This document shows, in pieces, positions 1-17,561 of a DNA stretch of 64,000 nt. Source of the stretch: Candidatus Omnitrophota bacterium. GTDB taxonomy: Bacteria > Omnitrophota > Omnitrophia > Omnitrophales > Aquincolibacteriaceae. Below the pieces are notes generated by a model. It saw only the letters and a list, made by a program, of their open reading frames with translations. It did no database searches and had not been told where the DNA came from. Location of the stretch: positions 20,390 to 84,389 of the forward strand of contig JBAYGD010000006.1 of NCBI GenBank assembly GCA_041666865.1, written 5' to 3'. A program made the position numbers and the translations under genes. Every line of letters begins with the position of its first letter. Positions within the stretch are counted from its first letter, which is position 1.

Positions 1-2
1 AG

Positions 3-266
3 GCGGGTGCGAGTCCCGAAAAGTACGGGGTGACCGTGGATTTCAGCGCCGGAGGACTTGCCTTTCATACGGACGAAAACTACCGGCCGGAGAGCCTGCT
101 TGAAGTCACCGTCGAATTGCCCGCCGAATCCCTTCCGATGAACTGCCTTGCCAAAGTCGTCCGTACGGTACGGGAGGGCTCTTTCTGGCGAGTGGCCGTT
201 TTGTTCATGGACCTCCCGGCGGGAGACCGCGCGCGAATCGATCGCTTCGTCGCCGGGGAGTCTTGA
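3..266 (+). CDS. PilZ-domain protein, C-terminal fragment (5' end lies outside window)
   Basis: Frame is open from the window edge (the track lists it only from an internal Met at 30). DFSAGGLAF matches the PilZ DxSxxG motif. Stop at 264-266. Confidence 0.5.
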   Translation, partial: AGASPEKYGVTVDFSAGGLAFHTDENYRPESLLEVTVELPAESLPMNCLAKVVRTVREGSFWRVAVLFMDLPAGDRARIDRFVAGES

Positions 267-267
267 C

Positions 268-3200
268 ATGACCAGGCCCGGGTATTTCAACGAACCGACA
301 CAGCTCGAGATCCATAAACGAATCGTTCGCTGGGCCTTTTTGATCTCCTTTGCGGTTTTCTGCGTTTTTTTTATCACCACGCTGTCAAGCTGGCGATCTT
401 CCCTCGAGATGCTTCAATCGCGGCAAAAAACCCTCTTCCATGAAATGACGTCCGAGATGGTTTACCGGATGGAGAACGAATTTCATCATAGCGTCGAATT
501 TTTGAGATATATGCAAAACTTTTATTCGGGAAGCGAGGTTGTGAACCGTAGTGAATTCCGTGCTTTTCTGGATACCGACAGCCTGAAATCCAGGTACCCC
601 GGCCTCGTGGCCATCCGGTTTATCGAACGTGTTCCGGACCGCGAGGAGCTCGCTTTCGTGGACTCCGTCAAAAACGACAAAAGCCTTTCGAACGCGGGCT
701 ATCCCGGATTTTCCGTCCAAAGGATCCGCGTGCCCGGGAGTTATTTTTCCTCCCGCAACGAAGCCTATGTCATCAAGTACGTTGAACCGTATATCGGGAA
801 TGAAAAAATGATGGGGCTCGATGTTGCTTCGGACCCGGACCGGCAAAAGCTCTACGACCGGGCCTGGATGAGTGGCGAGGTCTCTTTCGGGCATATCACG
901 GAATGGACGAGCGGAAAGAGCGCTTTCACGATTTGTCTTCCGGTCTACGCCAACGACAAGCCGGCTGGCACCATCCTCGAAAGGCGCGACGCCCTCCGCG
1001 GTTTTCTGGACGTGGTGATTCTCTCGGAGGAATTTTTTCCGGAAATCTTCAAACAGACGACCCTGTTTTCAAAAATCGGATGCGCCATCTACAGCGGAGA
1101 TATTCCGTCGGAAAGCGAGGCTAAACGCGCTCCGGTGTTCGCGAATTTCATCCCCCTGGATCGGCGCGGGGTTCAGAAGAAGCCGGCTTTCGGGACGAGG
1201 CAGATCTTCAAGATTGAAGACAGCTGCTGGACGTTGTTTTTTTATGCCACCGAGGACTTCCGCCGCGCGGAGGTGGGCAGCGAAATGCCGCTCATGATTC
1301 TGATCCAGGGGACCCTGCTGAGTTTTCTCGTCTGGGGGATCCTTTATGTCCTTTCGGTCACCCGGCTGAACGCCGTCTTGATTGCCGACCGGCTGACCTT
1401 CGACGTTCAGGAATCCGAGCAGCGCATCCGGGCTTTGGCGCAGTCCGCGATGGACGCCGTCATCTCCACCGATCAGCGGGAAGACATCATTTTCTGGAAC
1501 CTCGGTGCGCAGAAAGCGTTTGGCTTCACGGAATCGGAAGCGCTCGGGAAACCCCTGAAGATTCTTTTCCCCCCGGGTTCCGGGGTGCGTCCCTGGGGCT
1601 TCAAGCAGCACGTCCGGATGGCGTTCGGGGATTCGGGTGGGAAGGTCATCAGTTTGACCTGCTTGAAGCGGGATGAAAGTGAGTTCCCGGCCGAAATTTC
1701 GATGTCGAGCTGGAAGCGGGGAGCCGATGATTTTCTAACCGTCGTTGTCCGCGACGTCAGCGACCAGGAGAAGATGCGCAACGACCTGAGAGACAGCCGG
1801 GACCGATACGCCACGCTGATCGAAGAGTCGCCGGACCCGATGATTTCGCTCGATGTCTTCGAATCGATTTGCGCGGTGAACTCTGCGGCTGAGGGCATGT
1901 CGGGACGACTCCGGGCCGAGCTGATTGGCCAATCCCTGAAACAAGTCGGTTTTATTATGCCCGAATCCCTGGAGACGCTCCGAAAAGAGTTTGAATGGTC
2001 CGTGTCGGGCCAGACGCGTGTTCCTTTTCCGATCGATGTCCGGCAGAGCGCCAATGCGGTCCGGTCTTACGAGGTGAACCTTCATGTGGTCCGGAGCCGG
2101 GAAAAGATCGATTCCGTTTTGGCGGTTTTTCGCGACATCACGGAGCGCAAAAAAATCGAAAAAATCCAGAACGTTGAACATACGGTTCTCCGGATCCTGG
2201 CGTCGGCTGTCACCGAGGAGGACGGCGCGGCCGGGATCGTCGAATACCTCTGTAAGGCATTTCATTGGGCCGTCGGATCGCTGTGGCTGCTCGACGAACA
2301 AGCCGGGCAGCTTCGGGCGGTTTTTGCTTCGGATGGAGCGTTTGAACCCTACCGGGCTGTTACCCTGCAGCAGGCGTGCGCCAAGGGGGTCGATCTTCCG
2401 GGCCGGGTCTGGGAGGCCCAGGGAAGCGTTTGGATCGAGAACGCCGCTTTGGAGCTCGGGCTCGCCCGGCGTCCGCTCGCTTCGGAGCTTCGCTTACAAA
2501 ATGCGGTTGGCTTTCCCATCTTCAACCAAAATGATTTTATGGGAGTCCTGGAGCTTGTGGGATTCGGGGTGGGGAGGCCAGACGAAGGTTTTTTGAATTT
2601 GTTCGGGATGATTTCCCAGCAGGTCGGGCAGTTCCTGTGGCGCAAGCGGGCGGAGGCCCAGCTGAAGAGGGCGGAGCAAGCGCTCGGGGAGCGCGAGCGT
2701 CTGTCCATGGTGTCGCAGCTTGCGGCGGGGGTGGCCCATGAGGTCAAGAACCCGTTGACGATCATTTTGCAGGGGGCAGAATATCTGCAGCGGGACAAGG
2801 ACCTCAAAGACCCCGTCTCGCTCGAAGTCTTGGATTGTATGAAGCAGGCTGTGGAACGTGCCGATAAGATTGCTAAGGGGTTGGTGGAGCTTTCGAAGCC
2901 CGAATCGGTCAGTTTGCAGTCGGAAGATATTCACGCCGTGATCGAGACCAGTCTTTTGCTGATCAAAAACCGGATCGAGCACTCTGGCGTTCGAATCATC
3001 AAGCAATGGCAGCGCGATCTTCCGAAGGCCGTGATCGACCGCGGCAAGATCGAGCAGGTTTTCATCAACCTCCTGACGAACGCGATCGAGGCCATGGTCT
3101 CGGGGGGAGGCCTGCTGACTGTCCGAACTTGGTCGGAGGGCTCGGCAAAGAAGGGGAGAACCGTCGTGGTCGAGATCGAGGATAGCGGGCCGGGGATTCC

Positions 3201-3408
3201 GGCTCATATCCTTCCCAAGCTTTTTACGCCCTTTGTGACCGGAAAGCGGGCGCAGGGGGGCAGCGGACTCGGGCTCCCGATCGTTAGAAACATTATGGAA
3301 ACGCATAAGGGGAAGGTGGCGATCGAGAATGTCCCGGCCGGGGGAGCGAAAGTGACGCTGGTCTTTCCTTGTGAGCGCGACGCAACCGTCATCGGAGGAA
3401 CTCTATGA
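268..3408 (+). CDS. Multi-sensor histidine kinase (TM, periplasmic CHASE-like domain, TM, 2x PAS, GAF, HisKA, HATPase_c)
   Basis: Track ORF 148..3408, trimmed to the first Met after the PilZ stop (MTRPGYF). Two TM helices flank a ~300-aa periplasmic region with CHASE-like motifs (YVIKYVEPYIGNEKMMGLDV). H-box HEVKNPLTII. G-boxes DSGPGIP and GGSGLGLPIV. Confidence 0.85.
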   Translation: MTRPGYFNEPTQLEIHKRIVRWAFLISFAVFCVFFITTLSSWRSSLEMLQSRQKTLFHEMTSEMVYRMENEFHHSVEFLRYMQNFYSGSEVVNRSEFRAFLDTDSLKSRYPGLVAIRFIERVPDREELAFVDSVKNDKSLSNAGYPGFSVQRIRVPGSYFSSRNEAYVIKYVEPYIGNEKMMGLDVASDPDRQKLYDRAWMSGEVSFGHITEWTSGKSAFTICLPVYANDKPAGTILERRDALRGFLDVVILSEEFFPEIFKQTTLFSKIGCAIYSGDIPSESEAKRAPVFANFIPLDRRGVQKKPAFGTRQIFKIEDSCWTLFFYATEDFRRAEVGSEMPLMILIQGTLLSFLVWGILYVLSVTRLNAVLIADRLTFDVQESEQRIRALAQSAMDAVISTDQREDIIFWNLGAQKAFGFTESEALGKPLKILFPPGSGVRPWGFKQHVRMAFGDSGGKVISLTCLKRDESEFPAEISMSSWKRGADDFLTVVVRDVSDQEKMRNDLRDSRDRYATLIEESPDPMISLDVFESICAVNSAAEGMSGRLRAELIGQSLKQVGFIMPESLETLRKEFEWSVSGQTRVPFPIDVRQSANAVRSYEVNLHVVRSREKIDSVLAVFRDITERKKIEKIQNVEHTVLRILASAVTEEDGAAGIVEYLCKAFHWAVGSLWLLDEQAGQLRAVFASDGAFEPYRAVTLQQACAKGVDLPGRVWEAQGSVWIENAALELGLARRPLASELRLQNAVGFPIFNQNDFMGVLELVGFGVGRPDEGFLNLFGMISQQVGQFLWRKRAEAQLKRAEQALGERERLSMVSQLAAGVAHEVKNPLTIILQGAEYLQRDKDLKDPVSLEVLDCMKQAVERADKIAKGLVELSKPESVSLQSEDIHAVIETSLLLIKNRIEHSGVRIIKQWQRDLPKAVIDRGKIEQVFINLLTNAIEAMVSGGGLLTVRTWSEGSAKKGRTVVVEIEDSGPGIPAHILPKLFTPFVTGKRAQGGSGLGLPIVRNIMETHKGKVAIENVPAGGAKVTLVFPCERDATVIGGTL

Positions 3409-3779
3409 GCCATAAAATCATGCTTGTTGACGACGAAATCGACTGTCTGAGAATGATGAAATTGAATCTGGAAGCGGTCGGGGGCTATCATGTCCAGGTC
3501 GAGAGCCGGGCCGTCAAGGCACTCGAGACCGCCAGGACCTTCAAGCCCGATTTGATTTTCCTCGATCTCGTGATGCCCGAGATGGACGGTTCGGATGTGG
3601 CCTGTGCGCTCAAGGCGGACCCGCAGCTGGCCAAGATTCCGGTTGTTTTTCTGACCGCAACCGTGACCGAATCGGAAGTCTCCCAAACCGGACAGCGGAT
3701 CGGCGGCCAAGTATTTCTCGCAAAGCCCGTGACCGTCAAACAATTGACCGACTGCATTCAACAAATCCTGGGTGAGTAA
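3405..3779 (+). CDS. Stand-alone response regulator receiver (CheY-like, no output domain)
   Basis: 124 aa. IMLVDDE...DLIFLDLVMPEMDG...LAKPV receiver signature. ATGA overlap with the kinase stop. Confidence 0.9.
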   Translation: MSHKIMLVDDEIDCLRMMKLNLEAVGGYHVQVESRAVKALETARTFKPDLIFLDLVMPEMDGSDVACALKADPQLAKIPVVFLTATVTESEVSQTGQRIGGQVFLAKPVTVKQLTDCIQQILGE

Positions 3780-3784
3780 AAGCG

Positions 3785-5050
3785 ATGCCAAATTATCAAT
3801 ACCGGGCTAAAGACGGCCGCGGGAAAACCGTCGATGGGTTGATGGAAGCGGCCAGTGAGGGAGAAGCCGTCGAAAAAGTCAACCGGCTTGGGCTTCTTCC
3901 GGTCCGAGTCGAACTGACGGCGGCACCCGTCAAGCCCGAGCCGGTGCAGAAAAGCGAAACCGAAGAAAAGGCTCCGGCCCGCCCCGTTGCGCGCAAAGCG
4001 CCCGCGAAGGGCGGTCCGATCAAGAGCAAGGAGATCACGGCGTTTGGCAGACAGCTCTCGAGCCTGATCCGCTCGGGGGTCCCTATTCTCAAGGCCATCG
4101 GCATCATCAGTCAGCAGTCCGACAGCGCGGCGTTCAAAAAAATGCTCGATCAAATCTACGAGGACGTCAAAAACGGCGCTCCTTTTTCGGCGTCCCTCGG
4201 GAAGTTTCCCGGTTTATTCCCCCCTCTTTATACCGCGCTCGTTGCGGCCGGAGAATCCACCGGGAACCTGGATCAGTCTCTTCTGAGGGTCACCGAATAC
4301 AGGCAAAAACAGGAGGACATCGTTTCCCGCGTCCGGGCGGCCCTGATCTACCCGATGCTGATGGGCATCACGGGGCTCGGGACCATTATTTTCATGCTCA
4401 CTTTTGTCATGCCCAGGCTTTTGGGCATCTTTGCGCGCCTTGGGGGCGAGTTGCCCCTGCCGACGAGGATTCTGATCGGGACAAGCGATGCGCTCAGGCA
4501 GCCCTGGATCTGGGTTGGCGTCGCGGCGGCCGTTTTGGCCGGTGTGGTCTTGAGCCGTCAGAAAAATGAAAAGCACGCTCTGGCCCTGAGTCTTTTTGTT
4601 TTGGGGATCCCGCTTCTCGGGGACTTCGCCCTGAAAATAGAAATTGCGCGCTTTACGCGGACCATGGAGCTTTTGATCAAAAGCGGCATCTCCGTTCTTG
4701 CGGCGATCCGCACCACGGCGCCCGTGATCGCGAACCTGGTCCTGCGCAACGACCTCCTGAAGTGCCTGCAGGATATCAGCGAGGGCGGCTCGTTCGGCAG
4801 AAGCCTCCGGAGGTCGAAGCGTTTTCCGAGTTTCATGATCAATCTGATCAGCGTTGGTGAAGAATCGGGCAAGCTCGATGAATCGCTCGGAGAAATCGCG
4901 AATTTTTACGAGCGTGAAACCGACGAGGCGGTGCGCATTCTGACCTCGCTCCTGGAGCCTTTGATGATCCTCGGGATGGGCCTGGTGGTCGGCTTCATCG
5001 TTGTGGCGATGCTGCTTCCCATGTTCGAAATCAACATGATGGTGAAATAA
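3785..5050 (+). CDS. gspF: Type II secretion / type IV pilus platform protein GspF/PilC family
   Basis: 421 aa with two T2SSF repeats (LSSLIRSGVPILKAI ... LLIKSGISVLAAI) and three TM segments. Starts 5 nt after the receiver stop. Confidence 0.85.
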   Translation: MPNYQYRAKDGRGKTVDGLMEAASEGEAVEKVNRLGLLPVRVELTAAPVKPEPVQKSETEEKAPARPVARKAPAKGGPIKSKEITAFGRQLSSLIRSGVPILKAIGIISQQSDSAAFKKMLDQIYEDVKNGAPFSASLGKFPGLFPPLYTALVAAGESTGNLDQSLLRVTEYRQKQEDIVSRVRAALIYPMLMGITGLGTIIFMLTFVMPRLLGIFARLGGELPLPTRILIGTSDALRQPWIWVGVAAAVLAGVVLSRQKNEKHALALSLFVLGIPLLGDFALKIEIARFTRTMELLIKSGISVLAAIRTTAPVIANLVLRNDLLKCLQDISEGGSFGRSLRRSKRFPSFMINLISVGEESGKLDESLGEIANFYERETDEAVRILTSLLEPLMILGMGLVVGFIVVAMLLPMFEINMMVK

Positions 5051-5061
5051 ACGGACCGGCG

Positions 5062-5859
5062 ATGCTGAAACGATTGTTCCTCCAAGGGGCTTGTTTGGGG
5101 ATGGTGCTGGGTATTTTTTTAGGGGCGAAGGGAAGTCCTCCGACCTGGGAAGAATTGAAAGGCGACCATTTTATCGTCTATTACACCGGCGCGGGTGACT
5201 TTGCGAAGGACGTCCTGCGAAAGGCGGAGGAATGTTATTCCCGGGTCGGTGAAGATCTCGGATACGCTCGGCATTCGAAATTTTGGCAATGGGAAAAACG
5301 GGTTAAGATCTACATTTACAAAACCCACGAGGATTTCGTTCGCGGGACGGGCCGGCAGAAATGGTCGCACGGGTATGCCGATTATCATGCCAAAAAGATC
5401 TTCAGCTATGAGTGGAAAGAAGGATTTCTGGACGCCCTGTTGCCTCATGAAATTACGCATCTGATTTTCCGGGATTACGTCGGGTTCCGGGGCGAAGTTC
5501 CGGTTTGGCTCGACGAGGGGGTTGCGCAGTGGCAGGAGCCCGCCAAGCGGGGGGCTGTCCGGCAGCTCATGAAGTTTTATTTTTATGATGAAAAGGGGTA
5601 TTCGCTGAAAAACCTGACCGAGATCGACGTTCAGAACGTCAGAACGAAACTTGCCGTGGATCTTTTTTACACTCAGTCGGCCTCGGTCATCGATTTTCTG
5701 GTGACCAAGTACGGGGGCGACCGTTTTGTCGACTTTTGCCGTCAACTGCGGGACGGGAAAAAAATGGACGAGGCCCTGCCTTTCGCCTATCCGCTGCAGA
5801 TCCGCAATCTCAACGAACTGGAGGAGCAATGGAAACAGTACATTTTAAGCGCACCGTAA
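5062..5859 (+). CDS. Predicted zinc metallopeptidase, Peptidase_MA-like (HExxH ... E), signal/TM N-terminus
   Basis: HEITHLIF followed by WLDEGVAQWQE gives the gluzincin HExxH plus downstream Glu ligand. Hydrophobic N-terminus. Lies between gspF and gspG. Confidence 0.6.
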   Translation: MLKRLFLQGACLGMVLGIFLGAKGSPPTWEELKGDHFIVYYTGAGDFAKDVLRKAEECYSRVGEDLGYARHSKFWQWEKRVKIYIYKTHEDFVRGTGRQKWSHGYADYHAKKIFSYEWKEGFLDALLPHEITHLIFRDYVGFRGEVPVWLDEGVAQWQEPAKRGAVRQLMKFYFYDEKGYSLKNLTEIDVQNVRTKLAVDLFYTQSASVIDFLVTKYGGDRFVDFCRQLRDGKKMDEALPFAYPLQIRNLNELEEQWKQYILSAP

Positions 5860-6263
5860 ACCCGCAATCCGGCTTCACGCTGATCGAGCTGATGCTTGTC
5901 GTGATCATTATCGGCGCCCTGGTGGCGATGGTCCTCCCTCGCCTTGCGGGCCGCTCCGAACAGGCGAGGGTGCAGGCTGCTCAGGCGGATATCCGCTCGA
6001 ACATCGCCACGGCCTTGAAGCTTTACGAACTCGATAACGGGTCCTTTCCGCCCTCGGGGGAGGGGCTGAACGCGCTTTTCACGAAATCAGGGAACGCGCG
6101 AAACTGGAACGGGCCGTATTTGGAGAAAAGGCCGCTGGATCCCTGGGGCCACGACTATAAATACGACAGCCCGGGAACGCACCGCCCCGGGGATTACGAC
6201 CTGTCGTCGGCAGGCAAAGACGGGGCCGCCGGCACGACCGATGATATTACCAATTGGGATTAA
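5829..6263 (+). CDS. gspG: Major pseudopilin GspG (type II secretion)
   Basis: Track ORF 5736..6263 starts at TTG; trimmed to the ATG giving METVHFKRTVNPQSG/FTLIELMLVVIIIGAL (prepilin cleavage motif with Glu+5). GspG C-terminal signature NGPYLEK...PLDPWGHDYKY...DYDLSSAGKDG. Confidence 0.85.
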   Translation: METVHFKRTVNPQSGFTLIELMLVVIIIGALVAMVLPRLAGRSEQARVQAAQADIRSNIATALKLYELDNGSFPPSGEGLNALFTKSGNARNWNGPYLEKRPLDPWGHDYKYDSPGTHRPGDYDLSSAGKDGAAGTTDDITNWD

Positions 6264-6651
6264 AAAAAGGTCCCGCGGTTTTACCCTGATCGAGGTTCTG
6301 ATCACGGTCGCCGTTCTTTCGGTGGCAACCGTTTTCATCTCGCAGGGCAACCTCTTGAGCGGGGCCGTGTACGGGCGTTCCGTCAACCGCCTGGAAATGC
6401 AGAATTGGGCGGCCGAAAAGATCTGGAAAGTCAAAGAAGAGATTCTGGGCGCCGAATTCCCAGAAGTCGGGGCCTCGAGCGGTGCGGTGCAGGGAAAAAC
6501 CCGCGCCTACCGGTGGACCCTGGACGTCAAAGAGGAGCGCGAGAAGCTTTGCACGGCGTACGAGATTTCGCTTGCCGTGACGTGGCCCGAAGGCGGCGGC
6601 GAAGCCCTTGCCGAGCGTTATGGCGCGATCCTGAAGGTGAAAGGTAAATAA
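6241..6651 (+). CDS. Minor pseudopilin, GspI-like
   Basis: N-terminal RG/FTLIEVLITVAVLSV prepilin motif, 136 aa. Start codon uncertain: it overlaps the gspG end and an internal alternative start is possible. Confidence 0.65.
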   Translation: MILPIGIKKRSRGFTLIEVLITVAVLSVATVFISQGNLLSGAVYGRSVNRLEMQNWAAEKIWKVKEEILGAEFPEVGASSGAVQGKTRAYRWTLDVKEEREKLCTAYEISLAVTWPEGGGEALAERYGAILKVKGK

Positions 6652-6652
6652 C

Positions 6653-7252
6653 ATGCGCCGCTCCCGAGGGTTCACGCTGATCGAAGTGCTCCTCGTGGTT
6701 TCCCTGGCCGCGCTCATTGGCATGGCCGTCTACTCGATGTTCGCGAGCGCGGTCAATATGATGCACCGGATCAGCGATAATGCGCTGGACGAAGACGCGG
6801 ATATCTTCTTCGAAAAGGTGGACCGTGAGATTTCCTGCCAGGTTGTTTTTAAGGGGATTCCCTTCGAAGGGACGGCATCTTCCATGAGTTTCGCGGCCCC
6901 GATTGCTTTGAATCCGGAGAATCCCGCGGAGCGCGGAGTCGGACGAGTCCGGTACGATTTTGGGGGCTCGTCCCAGGGGTTCGTGAGGCGCCAGCAGAAC
7001 CTTCATCAGGTGTTCAAGACGATTGAGGGCGCGCCGGCGTCCCTGATGACAGCGGCAACGAGTCTTCGGTTTCAGTACTTTGTGTACCGGGAAAAGGACC
7101 AGCTCTACGAGTGGACGGAAGAGTGGAACTCTGCGGAGCAGGACGGACAACTGCCGGCCGCGGTCAGGCTCAAGCTCGAGTGTGCACGGGGAGAGGAGGC
7201 CAAAAAGTATGAGCGGACGATTGCTATCCCGATTGCGGGATCCACGCGGTAG
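6653..7252 (+). CDS. Minor pseudopilin, GspJ-like
   Basis: MRRSRG/FTLIEVLLVVSLAAL prepilin leader. 199 aa, the size typical for GspJ. Confidence 0.7.
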   Translation: MRRSRGFTLIEVLLVVSLAALIGMAVYSMFASAVNMMHRISDNALDEDADIFFEKVDREISCQVVFKGIPFEGTASSMSFAAPIALNPENPAERGVGRVRYDFGGSSQGFVRRQQNLHQVFKTIEGAPASLMTAATSLRFQYFVYREKDQLYEWTEEWNSAEQDGQLPAAVRLKLECARGEEAKKYERTIAIPIAGSTR

Positions 7253-8297
7253 TCTTCTGGTGCTCGCGCTCTGGATGATCGCGGTGGTGGCGATTCTTTC
7301 GGTTTCGATCAGCGAGTATGTCCGCCAGAAAATCGCCCTCTCGGACCGTCTGGACCGGAGGAACTGGCTGGCCGGGATCGCGGAAACGGGGGTCACGCGG
7401 GTGCTGTACAAGCTCCGCCAGAAAAAAGAAGCGGCTGAAGGATATCACGGTTTGAACGATACATATACCAGTGCGGCGGGCGACGTCCGGATGGGGGAAG
7501 GGGCTTTGGCTCTTTCGTATCCGGTGCGGAATCCGTGGACCGGCCAGATGCAGATGCGCTACGGCGTCGAGGACGAAGAGGGCCGATTCAACGTCAACGT
7601 CATCGACGGCAAGAGAATCGCCAAGTTTATCGAAGTGGTCGCCGAGGCGGAGGAGGATCAGGCGAAGGAAATCGCCTACGCGATCGTGGACTGGAGGGAC
7701 ACCAACGATTCCCTGTCTGACCCGAAGTTCGGCGCCGAAGACGATGACTACGAGGACCTGGACCCGCCTTATGAGGCCAAAGACCAGCCCTTCGAATCAC
7801 TCGACGAGCTTTTGCTCGTCCGGGGCATGACCCCAGAGATCTTCGAGCGGATTCAGCCTTTCGTGACGATCTACGGCCCCGGGACGGTCAACATCAACAC
7901 CGCTCCGATGGAAGTTTTGATGGGGCTTGGAATGTCCAAGGAGCTCGCAGGAAAGGTCGTGATGTACCGTGCGGGGCAGGACGGGGAGGAAGGGACCTCC
8001 GACGACCGCGTTTTTATGCAGGCGGCGAATGTTTCCACGGAACTGATGAAGAAGGTCAAGCTGGCCGGCGCGGAATCGACGATGGTCTCACAGATGGTCA
8101 GTAAGGGACAGCTGGGCGTCGACTCGACTCATTTCCGGATCCGAAGCCAGGGCAAAAGCATGCGGAAAAAGCAGATTCTCGAGATCGAAGCAGTCGCCGA
8201 CACCGACGGAGTGATCCTGTCCTGGTCGGTTTCGTCGCCGAGGCGCATGAGCGCGCCGGAGCTGTCTTTGGCTGCGACGGGTACGCAAGAGGGATGA
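7209..8297 (+). CDS. gspK: Minor pseudopilin GspK
   Basis: Track ORF 7080..8297 trimmed to MSGRLL...GSLLVLALWMIAVVAIL. The GTVNINTAP motif of the GspK helix-hairpin-helix region is present. Confidence 0.75.
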   Translation: MSGRLLSRLRDPRGSLLVLALWMIAVVAILSVSISEYVRQKIALSDRLDRRNWLAGIAETGVTRVLYKLRQKKEAAEGYHGLNDTYTSAAGDVRMGEGALALSYPVRNPWTGQMQMRYGVEDEEGRFNVNVIDGKRIAKFIEVVAEAEEDQAKEIAYAIVDWRDTNDSLSDPKFGAEDDDYEDLDPPYEAKDQPFESLDELLLVRGMTPEIFERIQPFVTIYGPGTVNINTAPMEVLMGLGMSKELAGKVVMYRAGQDGEEGTSDDRVFMQAANVSTELMKKVKLAGAESTMVSQMVSKGQLGVDSTHFRIRSQGKSMRKKQILEIEAVADTDGVILSWSVSSPRRMSAPELSLAATGTQEG

Positions 8298-8310
8298 AGG
8301 GAGGAGCGAC

Positions 8311-9786
8311 TTGAAACTGGTTTTCGGGTTTCCGAAGAACAAAAAAAAACCGGCGGTTCTCGCGGGAGAGGACTTGGTCTGCGTCAATCTCCAGGACCAG
8401 GAGGCCAAGGTCGCCGTTATCACTTCGAAATTGCAGGGCGACAGGCAGGTCAGCCAATTCTTGAGCTTCAGCGGCCAGGTCCCTTCCGCGGACGATCTGT
8501 CGGACCGTGTGTATGCCGCGCTCCAGCAGCTTCCTTTGAAAAATCCGAAGTTCGTCGGGGTGGTTTCCTCCAACCTCGTCGTGACCCGCAATATCGAAAT
8601 CCCGTCGCGCGATCCGGACGAAATTCGGGAAATCCTGAGCCTCCAGGCGTCCCGGCATACCCCTTACGCTCGCGACGAGATCATCATTGATTATATCAAT
8701 CTCGGAGTTTTCAAGAGCGTCTACACCAAAGTCCTTTTTATCATCGTCCCGAGGACGGTGGCCGCCCGCTACTATAATTTGGCCACCCGCCTCCGCTGGA
8801 GGATCGAGAAGATCGTTTTTATTTCGGAGGCGCTCGCCCGGTTTTTCTGCAAGCACCTGAACCTAGGGGGCGAACGCTTGCCGATTTGCATCCTGCAGGT
8901 GGATTCGACTGTCACCGAATTCGTCATCATGTTCCGGGGAGCCGCGCTCTTTGCCCGGAGCATTCCTGTTGGGGCCAAGCATTTTGCCGTGGCCAAGGAG
9001 GGGTATCAGGCCCGCTTTACCGAAGAGCTGAGGCGCTCCTTTGATACCTATCAGGGCGAGAATATCGACGCCATGCCCTCCCAAGTCCTGCTCACGGGCG
9101 CGATCCAGGGGCTCGACGACCTGAGTTTTACGATCGAGGATACGTTCCGTATGACGGTTAGACGGCTCACGGATCTCAACATGATTTCGATGGATGCCGA
9201 AGTCAAGGCGCAATGCGCGGGGCAGAATCTGGCGGTCCTTTCGGCGGCTGCGCCCGGGCTCCTCGTCGACGAACTGGCGGTGGATTTGAGCCCGGAGGAA
9301 AGCAGGCTCAAACGCCGCATGGAAGAAAGGTCGAAGGAGCTGATCAAAGCCGGCGTGCTCGGGATGGTGCTTCTGGGCCTTTTGTGCGTTTCGTTTGCGA
9401 GCCATATCTATCTGAAGACGGCACGGCTGGATCAGCTGACCAAGCGGTATGAGCCCATTCGCAAAGAAACGAAGTCGCTGGAAGAAACGTACGCCCGGGT
9501 CCGGGCGGTGAAGGGCCATTTGGCGGGGCGGGGGAAGGCCCTCAATTCCCTTGCCGAGCTTTGCTCGCTTCTTCCCAACGACATCTATCTGGCCGACATC
9601 AAATACGATACCGGCGGAAAAATGACGATCAAGGGGACCTCCTACACCAAGATTTCGATCTTCGGCTTGGTCGATAAAATGGGGAGCTCCAAGATTTTCA
9701 GGAATGTCCAAACCAAATATATTACCGGAAGGTCGGAAGAAGGCCTTGCTCTTTCCGATTTCGAAATCGCCACGACCGTGACCTGA
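8311..9786 (+). CDS. GspL-like inner-membrane assembly protein built as a PilM-like actin-fold cytoplasmic domain, a TM segment and a PilN-like periplasmic domain
   Basis: 491 aa. N-terminal ~330 aa are PilM/FtsA-like. The TM segment is LIKAGVLGMVLLGLLCVSF. The C-terminal domain is coiled-coil plus a PilN-like fold. Confidence 0.65.
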   Translation: MKLVFGFPKNKKKPAVLAGEDLVCVNLQDQEAKVAVITSKLQGDRQVSQFLSFSGQVPSADDLSDRVYAALQQLPLKNPKFVGVVSSNLVVTRNIEIPSRDPDEIREILSLQASRHTPYARDEIIIDYINLGVFKSVYTKVLFIIVPRTVAARYYNLATRLRWRIEKIVFISEALARFFCKHLNLGGERLPICILQVDSTVTEFVIMFRGAALFARSIPVGAKHFAVAKEGYQARFTEELRRSFDTYQGENIDAMPSQVLLTGAIQGLDDLSFTIEDTFRMTVRRLTDLNMISMDAEVKAQCAGQNLAVLSAAAPGLLVDELAVDLSPEESRLKRRMEERSKELIKAGVLGMVLLGLLCVSFASHIYLKTARLDQLTKRYEPIRKETKSLEETYARVRAVKGHLAGRGKALNSLAELCSLLPNDIYLADIKYDTGGKMTIKGTSYTKISIFGLVDKMGSSKIFRNVQTKYITGRSEEGLALSDFEIATTVT

Positions 9787-9795
9787 AAAGGAACC

Positions 9796-10362
9796 ATGAA
9801 GCTGATTGATTTCAATAAGCTGGCTGAGCATTATCAGCGCATGTCGAAGCGCGAAAAGCTGATTCTTATCGTGACGGCGACGTTTGTCGCCATCTTTCTC
9901 CTCGACCAGGTGATTATCGGCCCCGTTTACCGCACCCTGCGGTCGGTGGACCGCAAGATCATCGATTTGGAGGCCAATATCAAGCAAAGCATCCGCTTGC
10001 TCGGACAGAAGGAACAGATGATGAAGGAGGCCGAATACTACGCCGATTTTGCGCACTCGGCGAAATCCTCCGAGGAAGGGACGCTGGTCCTCCTCAAGCA
10101 CATCCAGGAAATTGCAAGCCAGGTTTCGGTCAATCTTCTCTATGTGAAGCCCGCCGGGGGAGGCCCTGAAAACAAGGAGTCGAACATTTACCGGGTCAAC
10201 CTGGAATGCGAAGGACAAATGGACCAGATCGTGAACTTTTTCTATGCGATCGAGAACTCGAAAATGCTGATGCAGCTCGAGAAGTTTTCCCTTCAACCGG
10301 TCGCCAAAGGGTCCAGCGTCATCCGCTGCAGTGCCACCGTGGCGCTGACCGGAGTGCCCTAG
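9796..10362 (+). CDS. GspM/PilO-like inner-membrane protein
   Basis: 188 aa. One N-terminal TM (LILIVTATFVAIFLL) followed by a coiled coil and a periplasmic alpha/beta domain. Sits directly after the GspL-like gene. Confidence 0.6.
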   Translation: MKLIDFNKLAEHYQRMSKREKLILIVTATFVAIFLLDQVIIGPVYRTLRSVDRKIIDLEANIKQSIRLLGQKEQMMKEAEYYADFAHSAKSSEEGTLVLLKHIQEIASQVSVNLLYVKPAGGGPENKESNIYRVNLECEGQMDQIVNFFYAIENSKMLMQLEKFSLQPVAKGSSVIRCSATVALTGVP

Positions 10363-10370
10363 CCCGAAGA

Positions 10371-11006
10371 TCAGGCCGCGGGCCGGTTCATGCGATTTTC
10401 GAGCGCGCGGGCAAGATCGTTCCTATTCATTTTCTTGAATTCTTCGATCTGGGCGGAAGCGGAGGCGCGGTCTCCTTGGCTTAGAAACGCTCCGACGAGG
10501 GCGACCCGAGCGTTATCCAGATACGCGTTGAGCTCGAGGGCTTTTTGGTAGGAGGCCACCGCTTCTTTGAGCTCCCCCAGAGAAGCGTAGGCGAGTCCGA
10601 GCTGATAGTGGGCGGCGAAACTGTCGGGATTGGCTTTGAGGGCTCCGAGGAAAGACGTCACGGCGTCCTTGGGCTCTTTACGGGCGGCGTGAATCAGGCC
10701 GAGCTGATAGAGCGGGGCATACTCTCCGGGCGCGGCCTCGAGCACCTGCTTGGCATAGGTCAGTGCCTGTTCGAGGTCGCCGGAGCGCGCGAAGCAAAGG
10801 CTCAGCAGGGATTTCACCCGGATGCTCCCGGGGTCGGCCTCGAGGGCTTTTTCGTATTGAATCAGGGCTTCGGGAATCTTTTTTTCGGCGACAAGCTTGT
10901 TCCCTTCGGTGATGTACGGTTCGGCATCGGCGGCGGAGGCCGGAGCTTTTGCCGCAAAGCAGAGGCAGGAGACGATGAGAATCGCGGTGAAAAGTCCGAG
11001 TTTCAT
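10371..11006 (-). CDS. TPR-repeat lipoprotein (PilF/PilW-like secretin pilotin candidate)
   Basis: Track ORF trimmed to MKLGLFTAILIVSC (signal peptide with LIVSC lipobox). At least 4 TPR units. Confidence 0.65.
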   Translation of the reverse strand: MKLGLFTAILIVSCLCFAAKAPASAADAEPYITEGNKLVAEKKIPEALIQYEKALEADPGSIRVKSLLSLCFARSGDLEQALTYAKQVLEAAPGEYAPLYQLGLIHAARKEPKDAVTSFLGALKANPDSFAAHYQLGLAYASLGELKEAVASYQKALELNAYLDNARVALVGAFLSQGDRASASAQIEEFKKMNRNDLARALENRMNRPAA

Positions 11007-11061
11007 GGGACGTCCTTTCAATGGGTGAAAAATGATAGCACACTTGGGAAGGGGTGTTAAG

Positions 11062-11433
11062 ATGAAAAACGTACAGGGACTCATTCTCATCCTGTTTTGT
11101 GTTTGTCTTTTTCCCTGTCAGCCGGCGGCGCGCGGGCAAGTTCAGGAGAAGGACGTGGAGCCTGCCGACATCGTCGAGAGCAAACCGGACGCAACGGATC
11201 CCGTCTATCTCCTGGTCACGACCAGGGACCGGCAGCATTTCCGGATCCCCAAGGACATGCAGTTGAAGAAAAAGGGGAATGTCTACTTTTTCGAGCCGAT
11301 GGAAAGCTACGTTTTCAAGCGGACGGTCGAGATGAAGGACGATGTCGACGCGATCAAGAAGCGGCTTGCCCTCATTGAGGAACGGCTCGGGATTATGCCG
11401 GAACAGGAAGATACGGACGCTAAAGCGGTTTGA
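11062..11433 (+). CDS. Small secreted hypothetical protein
   Basis: Track ORF 11032..11433 trimmed to MKNVQGLILILFCVCLF (signal peptide). GGAAGGGG RBS upstream. 123 aa. Confidence 0.5.
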   Translation: MKNVQGLILILFCVCLFPCQPAARGQVQEKDVEPADIVESKPDATDPVYLLVTTRDRQHFRIPKDMQLKKKGNVYFFEPMESYVFKRTVEMKDDVDAIKKRLALIEERLGIMPEQEDTDAKAV

Positions 11434-13008: not shown

Positions 13009-13263
13009 ATGAATACCATGACGGCCGAGGTTTTGAGCGCGCAGGAAATTTGCGAAAAACTCGATATTCCGTATTCCAAAATCAATTATTACACGTACCT
13101 TGGTTTTTTCGAAATCGCCCGGAAGGTCGGCAATAAGCGGTTCTACGACGGCGAACAGGTGGAAAGCCGGTTCCGAGCGATCTCGCGGCTCATGAACGAG
13201 GGCTATCCGCTCTCGCTCATCCGCAAGAAACTGATCGGGGGGCGCGGCGATGGGCTACTATAA
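13009..13263 (+). CDS. Small MerR-family HTH DNA-binding protein without effector domain (BldC/excisionase-like)
   Basis: 84 aa. LSAQEICEKLDIPYSKINYYTYLGF matches the MerR-type [18 protein letters not shown]. Overlaps the downstream gene by 14 nt. Confidence 0.6.
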   Translation: MNTMTAEVLSAQEICEKLDIPYSKINYYTYLGFFEIARKVGNKRFYDGEQVESRFRAISRLMNEGYPLSLIRKKLIGGRGDGLL

Positions 13264-14113
13264 GGTTCTCGGTTTCCAGAAAGAGCCGTTTTCGACAAGC
13301 CCCGACCCCGATTTCTTTTACCTCTCAAAGGCGCATGATGCGGCCCTGACCAATATCCTGATCGAATTGCGGCTCAAGCGCGGTTTGGCCGTCATTTTAG
13401 GGGACGTCGGGACCGGCAAGACGACACTTTCCAGGAAGCTCATTCAGGAACTGAAAAGCCGCGAAGACTGCCTTTTCCACATGATTCTCGACCCTTCCTT
13501 CGACGATCCGCTCCTCTTGTTGAGCTATATCTCCAAGAACTTCGGGATCCCAGTGGGCCCGAACGCCTCGATTTTGTCGCTTCGGGAATCGCTCGAGCAA
13601 TTCCTCTTCGAAAAGGCCGTCGTCGAGGGTAAGACCGTGGCCCTGATCGTCGACGAGGCCCAGAAGCTGAGCGACTCCTCGCTCGAGAATCTCCGGGTCC
13701 TGCTGAACTATGAGACCAACGAGTTCAAAATGCTGCAGCTTGTCCTGCTCGGACAGCTGGAACTTCAGTCCAAGATCAAGGAGATCGCTAATTTCTTTGA
13801 CCGGATCAGCTACAAAGGCAAACTCGAAGCGCTGGACTTTTCCGAAATGAAAGAAATGATCTTTTTCCGGATCCGCCGGGCGGGTTATGACTCCGACATG
13901 AACCTTTTTCTGGACGAGGCTCTGCATGGGATCCATGAATCGACGGGCGGCCATCCCCGGCAGGTGACCATGCTTTGCCATCGGGCTCTGAAGTCTTTAT
14001 TGCTCAAGAACAAACTCGTCGTGGATTCGCAGATCATCGAAGAGTTGATAGAAGAGGATGCGAGGACGGGATGGCAGAGAACGAGCCTCTTACTCCAGAA
14101 AAACAGCTATTAA
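13250..14113 (+). CDS. GspA/ExeA-like AAA+ ATPase (type II secretion accessory)
   Basis: Walker A GDVGTGKTTL and Walker B IVDEAQ. ExeA/MshM family architecture. No C-terminal peptidoglycan-binding domain. Confidence 0.7.
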   Translation: MGYYKVLGFQKEPFSTSPDPDFFYLSKAHDAALTNILIELRLKRGLAVILGDVGTGKTTLSRKLIQELKSREDCLFHMILDPSFDDPLLLLSYISKNFGIPVGPNASILSLRESLEQFLFEKAVVEGKTVALIVDEAQKLSDSSLENLRVLLNYETNEFKMLQLVLLGQLELQSKIKEIANFFDRISYKGKLEALDFSEMKEMIFFRIRRAGYDSDMNLFLDEALHGIHESTGGHPRQVTMLCHRALKSLLLKNKLVVDSQIIEELIEEDARTGWQRTSLLLQKNSY

Positions 14114-14775
14114 AGCTCATTGAAAATCCGAAGCAAGCCTCCGTTAGGGCCGCAAGCGTCAAACGGGAGGGAAGGAAATGGTTTTCCCTCGGCGCGTTCA
14201 AAGGACGCCTGGATTTTTGGAAGAGTTTTTCGGTCCGAAAGCCGGCCGTGCAGAAAAGGACGGGAAAGGAAGCCAACCGCATCCGGCGGCTGAACGCGGT
14301 CCTTTGGGTCCTGCTCATTTTCATGGCGGGTTACACGGCCTACAGCCTTTGGGACATGACGACGGGGATCCGGAAGGCATCGAACCTCATTCTGAACCCG
14401 GACCGGAGCGTCGCGGAACCGAAGGAGCCGGAGATCCGGCTGCAAGACGTGGCTTTTTACCTGGAGAAGATCCGGAGTCGAAATATTTTCAATGCCGCGC
14501 CCCCGGAAGCGAAACCGGAGAGGAAAAAAGAGGACGGAGAGCCCGTGACGGACGAGAAGCCGCTCCAGGCCCAAGACGACGAAGCGACCAAGAATTTTTC
14601 GCTGGTGGGGATTGCGTGGTCGGACGATCCGGAAGCGATGATCGAAGACAAGGCGGCAAGCCGGACCCTCTTCGTAAGGCGCGGCCAGTCGCTTCCCAAC
14701 GGCGTGCGGGTGGTGACGATTTTCAAGGAAAAAATCATTTTGAGTTATAAAGGCAAGGAATTCGAACTCAGTTAA
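14071..14775 (+). CDS. GspB/GspC-like bitopic protein (cytoplasmic N-terminus, TM, Lys/Glu-rich linker, C-terminal secretin-binding HR-like domain; no PDZ)
   Basis: Track ORF trimmed to MAENEP (RBS GAGGACGGG). TM segment LNAVLWVLLIFMAGYTAYSLW. C-terminus FSLVGIAW...GVRVVTIFKEKIILSYKGKEFEL fits the GspC HR / PilP pattern. Confidence 0.55.
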   Translation: MAENEPLTPEKQLLKLIENPKQASVRAASVKREGRKWFSLGAFKGRLDFWKSFSVRKPAVQKRTGKEANRIRRLNAVLWVLLIFMAGYTAYSLWDMTTGIRKASNLILNPDRSVAEPKEPEIRLQDVAFYLEKIRSRNIFNAAPPEAKPERKKEDGEPVTDEKPLQAQDDEATKNFSLVGIAWSDDPEAMIEDKAASRTLFVRRGQSLPNGVRVVTIFKEKIILSYKGKEFELS

Positions 14776-14794
14776 CGTTTGAGAGGCCCGGAAA

Positions 14795-16597: not shown

Positions 16598-17561
16598 ATT
16601 CCTTCTCTTTCTCAAACGCCGGGCTTGGCCGATCGCTTTTTCGATCCTGCTGTGTGGGGCGGTCCTTCTCGGGACTCTTTTCTACTGGTTTCCGTTTCAG
16701 GGGGCAAAAGCGCACTCGGTCATGATGGAGCACAAGGTCAGCAAGCTCAAAGAGGAGAGGGAGAGCCTTCAGAAGTTCTACGAAACCCTGAAACAGAAAT
16801 TCCAGGAGCTTGAGGCGGACCGCGACAACGTGCTCGTGCAGACCCGGCAGCTCCTCGGCGAGCGCGAAAAGTACGAGCAGTCCGTGGTCGAGCTCAATGC
16901 GGTGAAGGAAAAACAAAAAACGCTCACCGAAACGAATGCGGTTGTGACCGAGAAAATGACGGCTGCGGAAACGAAGGTCGCGGAGCTGCAGTCGAGCTAC
17001 GACGCTGCCCGGGCCGAGGCCGAATCCTCAAAGGCCAAGCTTGAGCGAACGACCCGCGAGAACGTCGAACTGGCCACGCGGTCTCAAAACACCGAAGCGG
17101 TCATCAATCAATATAAGCAAAAGGCGGAAGAAAACGAAAAATACAGCCCTCTTTTCAACTCCCTGAGCGTGGAGCACGAAGTGCTCAAGGAAAAATACAA
17201 GGCGCTCGAAGCGCGGCTCGGGGACATCCCCGGACAATTCTCTGAAATGGCCAAGGAAAACCAGGTTTTGATCCACGAGACGGCCGACATGCATTACAAT
17301 TTGGGGGTTTTTTACGCCAAGGAAAGGAATTATGAGCGCGCCCTCAAGGAGTTCCAGAAGGCCGTGGATATTGATCCGGGAGACGCCAAGGCCCATTATA
17401 ATCTCGGCTATATCTATGCCGACCACATGCAGGACAGGGCCCGGGCCGAGCTTCACTTCAAGACGTTCCTAGAGCTGGCCCCGGATGACCCCAACTCGGA
17501 CGCCGTCCGGAACTACATTATCAGCCGGGATGTTTTTAGCGCAAAAGTGTTGAAATCCTGA
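16590..17561 (+). CDS. Membrane-anchored coiled-coil plus TPR protein
   Basis: N-terminal TM segment, ~200 aa of heptad-rich coiled coil, and C-terminal TPRs (HYNLGVFYAKERNYERALKEFQKAVDIDP...). Overlaps the secretin stop by 8 nt. Confidence 0.6.
   Translation: MIRFLLFLKRRAWPIAFSILLCGAVLLGTLFYWFPFQGAKAHSVMMEHKVSKLKEERESLQKFYETLKQKFQELEADRDNVLVQTRQLLGEREKYEQSVVELNAVKEKQKTLTETNAVVTEKMTAAETKVAELQSSYDAARAEAESSKAKLERTTRENVELATRSQNTEAVINQYKQKAEENEKYSPLFNSLSVEHEVLKEKYKALEARLGDIPGQFSEMAKENQVLIHETADMHYNLGVFYAKERNYERALKEFQKAVDIDPGDAKAHYNLGYIYADHMQDRARAELHFKTFLELAPDDPNSDAVRNYIISRDVFSAKVLKS

What the first reader, a model, noticed from the sequence alone, without database searches (positions are those of the whole stretch)
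5062..5859. Gluzincin-type (HExxH...E) peptidase gene embedded between gspF and gspG
A Peptidase_MA-like protein with an N-terminal hydrophobic anchor or signal is encoded 11 nt after gspF and overlaps the gspG start. Canonical T2SS operons carry no metalloprotease here. It could be a dedicated substrate, a pseudopilin- or substrate-processing protease, or a secretion-coupled maturation factor.
Basis: partly seen in the sequence, partly recalled or inferred. Interest (0 to 1): 0.55.

Follow-up and report, generated by a model that had tools for sequence, protein, structure and literature searches.

The report
Conserved zinc protease inside secretion-pilus operon
A real, apparently active and exported zinc protease gene sits between the platform gene and the main pseudopilin gene of a type II secretion/pilus-like operon, this placement is the rule across the uncultivated phylum Omnitrophota rather than a one-off insertion, and what the protease cuts is unknown.

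Summary

The gene is not incidental. In 75 of 80 species-representative loci found through the peptidase, it lies directly upstream of gspG. In an independent test starting from gspG, 50 of 53 informative metagenome loci carry it there. It is about as conserved as GspF and more conserved than the minor pseudopilins and GspK/L/M. The host is a Candidatus Omnitrophota MAG. The locus is the 'F-type ATPase/T4aP' locus already described for that phylum. None of the papers I searched mention the peptidase.

Function is unresolved. I favour a periplasmic accessory peptidase tied to the pseudopilin module (about 0.45) over a dedicated secreted cargo (about 0.35). This is a new variant of a known kind, of moderate interest.

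The parts
1..266 (+). 3' part of a stand-alone PilZ gene (117 aa on the full contig), downstream of gspE (MshEN-T2SSE-PilZ) and an F-type ATPase cluster that lie off-window
   Evidence: L171; window position = L171 position - 6216; ORF 30..266
268..3779 (+). CHASE/PAS/GAF histidine kinase (268..3408) and response regulator (3405..3779), inserted between gspE/PilZ and gspF
   Evidence: Relatives carry an HK+RR module at other junctions of the locus
3785..5050 (+). gspF (inner-membrane platform protein)
   Evidence: PF00482 twice, 212.5 bits; TIGR02120 361 bits, below its equivalog cutoff of 424
5062..5859 (+). pepMA: exported gluzincin-type zinc metallopeptidase (Peptidase_MA_2), the finding
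5062..5133 (+). Predicted Sec signal peptide or N-terminal anchor (residues 1-24; candidate cleavage after AKG)
   Evidence: Hydropathy and -3/-1 analysis of 109 full-length homologues; AF2 helix 2-21. SignalP was not available
5446..5460 (+). HEITH, the HExxH zinc-binding/catalytic motif (His129, Glu130, His133)
   Evidence: Invariant in alignment A1; 120 of 120 top homologues keep HExxH-x18-E; lies in helix 119-140 of the model
5515..5517 (+). Glu152, predicted third zinc ligand (WLDEGVAQW)
   Evidence: Invariant; lies in helix 148-157; aligns with WLNEGFA of M1 aminopeptidases
5820..5826 (+). GGAGGAG Shine-Dalgarno for gspG, inside the 3' end of pepMA
   Evidence: Read directly from the sequence
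5829..6263 (+). gspG, major pseudopilin (15-aa leader, G|FTLIE)
   Evidence: PF08334 111.9 bits; TIGR01710 136 bits, above its cutoff
6241..7252 (+). Two minor pseudopilins: H/I-like 6241..6651 and GspJ-like 6653..7252
   Evidence: N_methyl and T2SSJ hits
7209..8297 (+). gspK-like gene
   Evidence: PF21687 77 bits; gene call in L171
8311..10362 (+). Assembly-platform genes: PilM-PilN fusion (GspL-like, 8311..9786) and GspM/PilO-like (9796..10362)
10371..11006 (-). TPR lipoprotein (lipobox IVSC), candidate PilF/Tgl-type pilotin
   Evidence: The same gene sits in this position in L001 and L002. The pilotin role is inference
13009..17561 (+). Outer-membrane sub-cluster: MerR, ExeA-like AAA_22 ATPase, GspC/B-like protein, secretin GspD (14795..16597) and a TPR protein

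Best explanation
pepMA encodes a catalytically competent zinc gluzincin. The Sec pathway exports it, so its catalytic domain sits on the periplasmic side of the inner membrane. It is co-transcribed and co-regulated with the pseudopilin genes of the Omnitrophota T2SS-like type IV filament machine, the locus published as 'T4aP'. I propose it is a lineage-specific accessory of that machine: a periplasmic peptidase acting on proteins the machine handles, either for turnover or quality control of pseudopilins or for trimming of cargo before export.

Shown by the analyses: the gene is real; the family, fold and intact active-site motif; the export-type N-terminus; the operon position; and conservation across the phylum. 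Inferred: periplasmic residence rather than secretion, and the identity of the substrates.
For: - Active site: HExxH and Glu152 are invariant. All 120 top homologues keep HExxH-x18-E, and 148 of 150 representatives clustered at 50% identity keep HExxH.
- Export: 105 of 109 full-length homologues have a hydrophobic N-terminal 12-mer, 96 have K/R before it, and all have small -3/-1 residues just before the first conserved fold residue. Only 3 are lipobox-like.
- Synteny: pepMA lies directly upstream of gspG on the same strand in 75 of 80 species-representative loci; the other five are contig ends or an undetected gspG. Starting from gspG, 50 of 53 informative metagenome loci carry it there. The order also holds on a 69% GC contig and for a protein that is not among the best 120 close matches.
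- Junction stability: only 3 of 75 pepMA|gspG junctions are wider than 300 nt. In contrast, 8 of 66 gspF|pepMA junctions carry inserts over 1.3 kb, and 8 further loci have no gspF within 6 kb.
- Conservation: median 46% identity and 0.98 bits per residue, like GspF (50%, 0.96) and above GspH/I/J/K/L/M (29-36%).
- No propeptide: the fold starts about 5 residues after the signal.
- Divergent relatives are tethered to the inner membrane or fused to periplasmic maturation enzymes: Zn-ribbon-TM-PepMA, Lnt-PepMA next to secA, and PepMA-thioredoxin-like.
- Co-transcription: no promoter- or terminator-like site separates gspF, pepMA and gspG.
Against: - No substrate is identified, and nothing in GspG looks like it needs extra processing (canonical leader and canonical Ca-site region).
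- Three of 53 close gspG loci lack the gene (L137 has gspF directly followed by gspG; also L106 and L166). It is therefore not indispensable for the machine, or it has moved elsewhere in those genomes.
- The nearest structural neighbours (M9 and M30; the more distant M4 family too) are secreted enzymes.
- Operon-embedded cargo genes are known in related systems.
- The conservation figure is biased upward, because the 80 loci were chosen as the best PepMA matches.
- The membrane-tethered fusions are divergent paralogues and are not encoded at this locus type.
- At least one family member (P0166, L170) lies outside any T2SS operon.
- The signal-peptide call rests on a crude rule, not on SignalP.
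Confidence: 0.45

Rival explanations
1. PepMA is the dedicated cargo of the machine. It is exported by Sec, folds in the periplasm, and is then pushed out through the secretin (or carried on the filament tip) to degrade proteins on host or prey surfaces. This would suit the predatory or parasitic lifestyle proposed for Omnitrophota.
For: - It is a soluble single-domain protein with a signal peptide.
- A secretin sub-cluster is present.
- The locus has been linked to host attachment (PMC10066038).
- The machine persists without the gene in 3 of 53 loci.
- Precedents from my own knowledge, not tested here: tcpF follows the platform gene tcpE in the Vibrio cholerae tcp operon; cofJ lies in the ETEC cof operon; sslE/yghJ (an M60 metalloprotease) heads the E. 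coli T2SS-beta operon; pulA lies next to pulC-O.
Against: - T2SS cargo sets normally vary between genera. Here one protein keeps a fixed slot and GspF-like conservation across a phylum spanning 29-69% GC.
- There is no propeptide or zymogen feature, which is unusual for broad-specificity secreted metalloproteases.
- Divergent relatives are membrane-tethered or fused to periplasmic enzymes.
- Its linkage to gspG is tighter than its linkage to the rest of the locus.
Confidence: 0.35
2. PepMA is a general periplasmic housekeeping peptidase. It was captured in this operon in an ancestor of the phylum and persists there by inertia, with no specific functional link to the machine.
For: - Family members occur in other contexts: P0166 in L170, P0248 in L085, and the Lnt fusion next to secA in L169.
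- Some loci have lost it.
Against: - The position is kept in 50 of 53 and 75 of 80 loci, despite repeated rearrangement of neighbouring junctions by the HK/RR module and relocation of gspF.
- Overlapping or near-abutting reading frames with gspG are common in these loci.
- No second copy exists in the 64-kb window.
Confidence: 0.12
3. PepMA is a non-catalytic structural subunit (a pseudo-protease), or a substitute for the missing prepilin peptidase.
For: - No A24 prepilin-peptidase motif was found in the window by a simple regex.
- The operon lacks gspO.
Against: - The HExxH-x18-E site is invariant in 120 of 120 close homologues, which argues against a pseudo-enzyme.
- Prepilins here have canonical G|FTLIE sites, which are cut at the cytoplasmic face by polytopic aspartic A24 enzymes (established knowledge).
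- PepMA's catalytic domain is extracytoplasmic, so the topology does not fit.
- gspO is often encoded elsewhere in a genome.
Confidence: 0.04

Closest known systems
Pfam PF13485 Peptidase_MA_2 / MEROPS clan MA(E) gluzincins (structurally nearest: M9 collagenase peptidase domain, M30 hyicolysin/lugdulysin, M1 aminopeptidase catalytic domain)
   Different: Only 12-18% identity to any solved structure, and no significant PDB sequence match. It is a minimal single domain of about 240 residues. It has no propeptide, no collagen-binding, PKD or activator domains, and no GxMEN exopeptidase motif. It carries its own conserved FWxW loop and an FCRQLRDGK motif. No member of this subfamily has been characterised, as far as I could find.
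Canonical type II secretion operons (gspC-O of Klebsiella/Vibrio/E. coli) and the Omnitrophota 'symbiotic F-type ATPase/T4aP' locus of Seymour et al. 2023 (PMC10066038)
   Same: Shared genes are gspE, F, G, J, K, L/M-like, a GspC-like gene and the secretin. On the window's own contig an F-type ATPase cluster and an MshEN/PilZ-bearing gspE lie upstream, as that paper describes.
   Different: A peptidase gene lies between gspF and gspG. The PilM-PilN fusion and PilO-like protein are T4aP-like features. There are only four pseudopilin genes. No gspO is in the locus. The paper's main text contains neither 'peptidase' nor 'protease'.
Operon-encoded cargo of type IV filament machines: TcpF (V. cholerae tcp), CofJ (ETEC cof), SslE/YghJ (E. 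coli T2SS-beta, M60 zinc protease)
   Same: A Sec-exported soluble protein is encoded inside or at the head of the machine's operon. tcpF directly follows the platform gene. SslE is an HExxH gluzincin. This rests on my knowledge and was not tested here.
   Different: Those cargoes are confined to a species or genus, are larger or unrelated in fold, and are not conserved together with the machine across a phylum. There is no sequence similarity to PepMA. Secretion of PepMA is untested.
Periplasmic envelope-biogenesis metalloproteases such as BepA (M48, HExxH plus TPR)
   Same: An exported HExxH zinc peptidase without a propeptide that acts on envelope-machine proteins in the periplasm. This is an analogy for the favoured mechanism, from my knowledge.
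   Different: A different MEROPS family and fold subclass. PepMA has no TPR domain; a separate TPR lipoprotein is encoded after gspM. No homology was shown.

Membership tests
Clan MA(E) gluzincin / Pfam Peptidase_MA_2 | Profile match above the curated threshold | tested here: met
   PF13485 at 61.6 bits against a cutoff of 32.4, covering profile positions 18-199 of 201
Clan MA(E) gluzincin / Pfam Peptidase_MA_2 | HExxH motif on an 'active-site helix', conserved in the family | tested here: met
   His129, Glu130 and His133 are invariant and lie in helix 119-140
Clan MA(E) gluzincin / Pfam Peptidase_MA_2 | Third zinc ligand is a Glu on a following helix (HExxH-x18-plus-E) | tested here: met
   Glu152 lies 18 residues after His133, is invariant, and sits in helix 148-157. 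It aligns with the M1 motif WLNEGFA
Clan MA(E) gluzincin / Pfam Peptidase_MA_2 | Thermolysin-like two-subdomain fold | tested here: met
Clan MA(E) gluzincin / Pfam Peptidase_MA_2 | Zinc binding, ligand geometry and peptidase activity | not testable with these tools
This needs ICP-MS and activity assays
Component of a type II secretion / type IV filament locus | Encoded in one transcription unit with the core genes | tested here: met
   An 11-nt gap to gspF and a 31-nt overlap with gspG, with no promoter- or terminator-like site between them
Component of a type II secretion / type IV filament locus | Position conserved in related loci | tested here: met
   75 of 80 loci found via PepMA and 50 of 53 loci found via GspG. 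Exceptions are L106, L137 and L166
Component of a type II secretion / type IV filament locus | Physical or functional interaction with machine proteins | not testable with these tools
   No multimer prediction or experiment was available
T2SS cargo (exoprotein) | Sec/Tat export to the periplasm | tested here: inconclusive
   The N-terminus looks like a signal peptide in 105 of 109 homologues. Cleavage versus anchoring was not decided, because SignalP was not available
T2SS cargo (exoprotein) | Machine-dependent release outside the cell | not testable with these tools
   This needs a secretome or metaproteome
Prepilin peptidase (MEROPS A24) | Polytopic membrane aspartic protease with the GxGDxK motif, acting at the cytoplasmic face | tested here: not met
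   PepMA has a single N-terminal hydrophobic segment, HExxH chemistry and an extracytoplasmic domain

The most novel reading that the evidence does not exclude
PepMA is an integral periplasmic protease of the filament machine that cleaves pseudopilins. It would limit or dismantle the pseudopilus, giving proteolytic length control or recycling in a system whose locus encodes no retraction ATPase. Alternatively, it rides the minor-pseudopilin tip to be presented to the host surface. Either case would make it a new functional class of type IV filament component, conserved across a phylum.
Probability: 0.12. Interest if true: 0.8.

Novelty: new variant of a known kind. Interest (0 to 1): 0.5.

Why it matters
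How pseudopili are kept short and recycled without a retraction ATPase is still unsettled for type II secretion, and so is how cargo is matured and selected. A protease that has travelled with the major pseudopilin gene across a whole phylum is a concrete candidate for one of these roles. If it is cargo instead, it would be the one effector conserved across Omnitrophota. It would then give a direct handle on how these ultra-small, host-dependent bacteria attack or attach to partners. In either case the locus published as 'T4aP plus symbiotic ATPase' has a conserved enzymatic member that has gone unremarked. That member can be expressed and assayed without cultivating the organism.

Tried and rejected
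- **Incidental insertion or mobile cargo:** rejected on synteny.
- **Pseudo-enzyme:** rejected because the active-site motif is invariant.
- **Prepilin-peptidase substitute:** rejected on topology and chemistry. The regex for an A24 motif in the window found nothing, but it is crude.
- **Lipoprotein:** only 3 of 109 homologues have a lipobox-like motif.
- **Peptidoglycan hydrolase for envelope crossing:** considered and set aside. No gluzincin of this fold class among the structural neighbours is a PG hydrolase. This is inference only.
- **Paralogues in the window:** none found.
- **PDB sequence search:** no usable relative. The top hit, Crov588, is a repeat-protein artefact on the LPHEITHLIF segment.
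- **NCBIfam:** only a sub-threshold flagellinolysin hit, 15.7 bits against a cutoff of 205.
- **Literature:** searches for PF13485/Peptidase_MA_2, for Omnitrophota plus type II secretion or pseudopilin, and for T2SS plus metalloprotease plus gspG found no description of this gene.
- **Proteome of Ca. Velamenicoccus archaeovorus:** Kizina et al. 2022 is not in the library, and the 2025 follow-up says nothing on pili or this peptidase.
- **afdb50 fold library:** unavailable.
- **Contexts of several divergent homologues:** uninformative because the contigs are short.
- **Zinc-site geometry:** not measured, because model coordinates are not exposed to scripts (one search lists the contents of /data).

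Full report
**1. The observation**

The window has an ORF at 5062..5859 on the + strand (265 aa, ATG to TAA). It begins 11 nt after the stop of a gene with two T2SSF domains, which scores 361 bits to the GspF equivalog model, below that model's own cutoff of 424. Its last 31 nt overlap a gene that passes the GspG equivalog threshold and has a canonical prepilin leader (METVHFKRTVNPQSG|FTLIELM). A GGAGGAG Shine-Dalgarno for gspG lies inside the 3' end of the ORF.

The product matches Pfam Peptidase_MA_2 at 61.6 bits, against a gathering score of 32.4. More than 1100 database homologues reach E = 1e-113. The exact protein is in GenBank as 'peptidase MA family metallohydrolase' from a Candidatus Omnitrophota MAG.

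**2. The protein**

A 24-sequence alignment spanning 45-60% identity to the window protein has these invariant residues:
- His129, Glu130 and His133 (HExxH);
- Glu152 in WLDEGVAQW, exactly 18 residues after the second His;
- Tyr203;
- an FWxW loop;
- a C-terminal FCRQLRDG motif.

All 120 closest homologues keep HExxH-x18-E. Of 150 representatives clustered at 50% identity, 148 keep HExxH, some with 1-3 extra residues before the Glu.

The AlphaFold2 model is confident (mean pLDDT 89.2, pTM 0.81). It puts HExxH in helix 119-140 and Glu152 in helix 148-157, which is the gluzincin arrangement.

*N-terminus.* Among 109 full-length homologues:
- 105 have a strongly hydrophobic 12-mer;
- 96 have K/R before it;
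- all have small -3/-1 residues between it and the first conserved fold residue (Trp29);
- only 3 look lipobox-like.

This is signal-peptide architecture, and the fold starts a few residues after it, so there is no propeptide. The catalytic domain is therefore extracytoplasmic. Whether the signal is cleaved is inferred, not shown.

**3. The surroundings**

Downstream of gspG come an H/I-like pseudopilin, a GspJ-like pseudopilin, GspK, a PilM-PilN fusion (GspL-like) and a GspM/PilO-like protein. A TPR lipoprotein follows on the opposite strand.

After a histidine kinase on the minus strand comes a second cluster: MerR, an ExeA-like AAA ATPase, a GspC/B-like protein, a secretin and another TPR protein.

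Upstream, on the window's own contig, lie F-type ATPase alpha/gamma/beta genes, a small MshEN protein, GspE with MshEN and PilZ domains, and a stand-alone PilZ whose 3' end is window 1..266. A CHASE/PAS/GAF kinase with its response regulator follows, and then gspF.

This is the 'symbiotic F-type ATPase/T4aP' locus that Seymour et al. described as widespread in Omnitrophota and linked to host attachment. Their main text mentions no peptidase or protease. By gene content the machine is a hybrid:
- T2SS-like features: a GspG-type major pseudopilin, GspJ/K and a GspC-like protein;
- T4aP-like features: PilM-PilN, PilO and a TPR lipoprotein.

**4. Is the gene an accident of this genome?**

No. A scan of one genome per GTDB species found 453 relatives. 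The best 80 are nearly all labelled Omnitrophota. Fourteen are labelled 'uncultured Planctomycetia/Planctomycetales', and a few carry other labels such as Eisenbacteria or Margulisiibacteriota.

In 75 of the 80, pepMA lies directly upstream of gspG on the same strand. The other five are contig ends or an undetected gspG.

Those loci were selected through PepMA, so I ran the reciprocal test from GspG in metagenome contigs. Of 53 loci with at least 900 nt upstream of gspG, 50 carry pepMA there. Sixteen shorter loci show its 3' end.

The three exceptions are real:
- L137 has gspF immediately followed by gspG;
- L106 has the kinase/regulator pair immediately followed by gspG;
- L166 is rearranged.

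The arrangement also holds for a relative on a 69% GC contig and for another protein that is not among the best 120 close matches.

*Junction stability.* The pepMA|gspG junction is the more stable one:
- Only 3 of 75 gaps exceed 300 nt.
- The gspF|pepMA junction carries inserts over 1.3 kb in 8 of 66 loci, typically the kinase/regulator module. In 8 further loci no gspF lies within 6 kb.

So pepMA behaves as the first gene of the pseudopilin module.

*Conservation.* Relative to the window, PepMA has median 46% identity and 0.98 bits per residue. GspF is similar (50%, 0.96). GspH/I/J/K/L/M are lower (29-36%) and GspG is higher (70%). The caveat is that the locus set favours PepMA.

**5. The wider family**

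A profile search of 1.84 billion representatives gives 278 clusters at E <= 1e-30, 2311 at <= 1e-10 and 8043 at <= 1e-3.

Some divergent members lie outside T2SS loci (P0166 in L170, P0248 in L085). Three have informative architectures:
- apolipoprotein N-acyltransferase fused to PepMA, next to secA;
- PepMA fused to a thioredoxin/AhpC-like domain;
- zinc ribbon, then a TM helix, then PepMA.

All three place the domain at the periplasmic face of the inner membrane, alongside envelope-protein maturation functions.

**6. How it most likely works**

*Shown:* an intact gluzincin with an export signal, co-transcribed with the pseudopilin genes and kept there across a phylum.

*Inferred:* it stays in the periplasm and cleaves proteins handled by the machine. 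I favour this accessory reading (about 0.45) for five reasons:
- the phylum-wide fixed slot;
- conservation at the level of core components;
- the absence of a propeptide;
- the tighter linkage to gspG than to gspF;
- the membrane-tethered relatives.

*Main rival:* the protein is the machine's own cargo (about 0.35). This is supported by the secreted nature of its structural neighbours, by its simple soluble architecture, by the host-interaction role proposed for the locus, by the survival of the machine without it in a few lineages, and by precedents for operon-encoded cargo (TcpF, CofJ, SslE; from my knowledge).

*Less likely:* a hitch-hiking housekeeping peptidase (about 0.1). A pseudo-enzyme or a prepilin-peptidase substitute is essentially excluded.

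**7. Comparison with what is known, and novelty**

By every sequence and fold criterion I could test, the protein is a member of Peptidase_MA_2 and clan MA(E). Metal binding and activity are untested.

As a system, I found no description of a gluzincin embedded between gspF and gspG in the literature available to me. Public annotation already names the protein family, and the surrounding locus is published. I therefore rate it a new variant of a known kind: a known machine with a conserved, lineage-specific enzymatic member of unknown role.

Interest is moderate (0.5). The linkage is robust and testable by heterologous expression, but it currently answers no open question. The most novel reading not excluded is proteolytic control of the pseudopilus, or tip-presented delivery. 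I give that about 0.12.

Noticed in passing
L171 1..9995 (the window's own contig, upstream of window position 3785); window 1..3779: Upstream of gspF lie F-type ATPase alpha/gamma/beta genes, a small MshEN protein, GspE with N-terminal MshEN and C-terminal PilZ domains, a stand-alone PilZ, and a CHASE/PAS/GAF histidine kinase with its response regulator. This points to a c-di-GMP- and two-component-regulated machine, matching the published 'symbiotic ATPase/T4aP' locus.
   Followed up: partly
L021 3787..5988; L025 2254..5923; window 268..3779: The kinase/regulator module sits at different junctions in different lineages. In the window it lies between gspE and gspF. In L021 it lies between gspF and pepMA. 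In L025 it lies upstream of pepMA, with no gspF within 6 kb. It is almost never found between pepMA and gspG.
   Followed up: partly
window 10371..11006 (-): A TPR protein with a signal peptide and the lipobox IVSC lies convergent with gspM. The same gene sits in this position in L001 and L002. It resembles the PilF/PilW/Tgl type of secretin pilotin; this is inference.
   Followed up: partly
L137 369..2013; L106 739..1588; L166 289..2135: Three close relatives of gspG (67-73% identity) have no pepMA upstream: gspF directly followed by gspG, response regulator directly followed by gspG, and a rearranged J-K-G order. Whether pepMA is elsewhere in those genomes is unknown.
   Followed up: partly
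P0268 (L169 2862..5243), P0212, P0256: Three divergent family members have fused architectures: Lnt (LNT_N plus CN_hydrolase) with Peptidase_MA_2, next to secA; Peptidase_MA_2 with an AhpC/TSA-redoxin domain; and zinc ribbon, TM helix, then Peptidase_MA_2.
   Followed up: partly
window 5272..5301 (residues 71-80 of PepMA): The invariant aromatic loop (Phe74, Trp75, Trp77, Arg80) falls in the only low-confidence block of the model (mean pLDDT 62). It may be a flap that binds a partner or substrate. This is unexplained.
   Followed up: no
window 5829..8297: The locus has only four pseudopilin-type genes: G, one H/I-like, J-like and K. Some relatives have about 650 nt of extra sequence between gspG and the next pseudopilin (for example L019, L023, L026, L031, L040), room for a fifth gene.
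   Followed up: no
L172 (69% GC) 480..8593: The E-F-PepMA-G-x-J-K-PilMN-M order also occurs on a contig with much higher GC than any of the 80 species-representative loci (29-64%). There GspE lacks the PilZ domain. The organism is unidentified.
   Followed up: no
window 11032..11433 (+) and L001 14058..14426: A small conserved ORF of about 120-130 aa with no Pfam match lies between the TPR lipoprotein and the minus-strand PAS histidine kinase, both in the window and in a relative.
   Followed up: no
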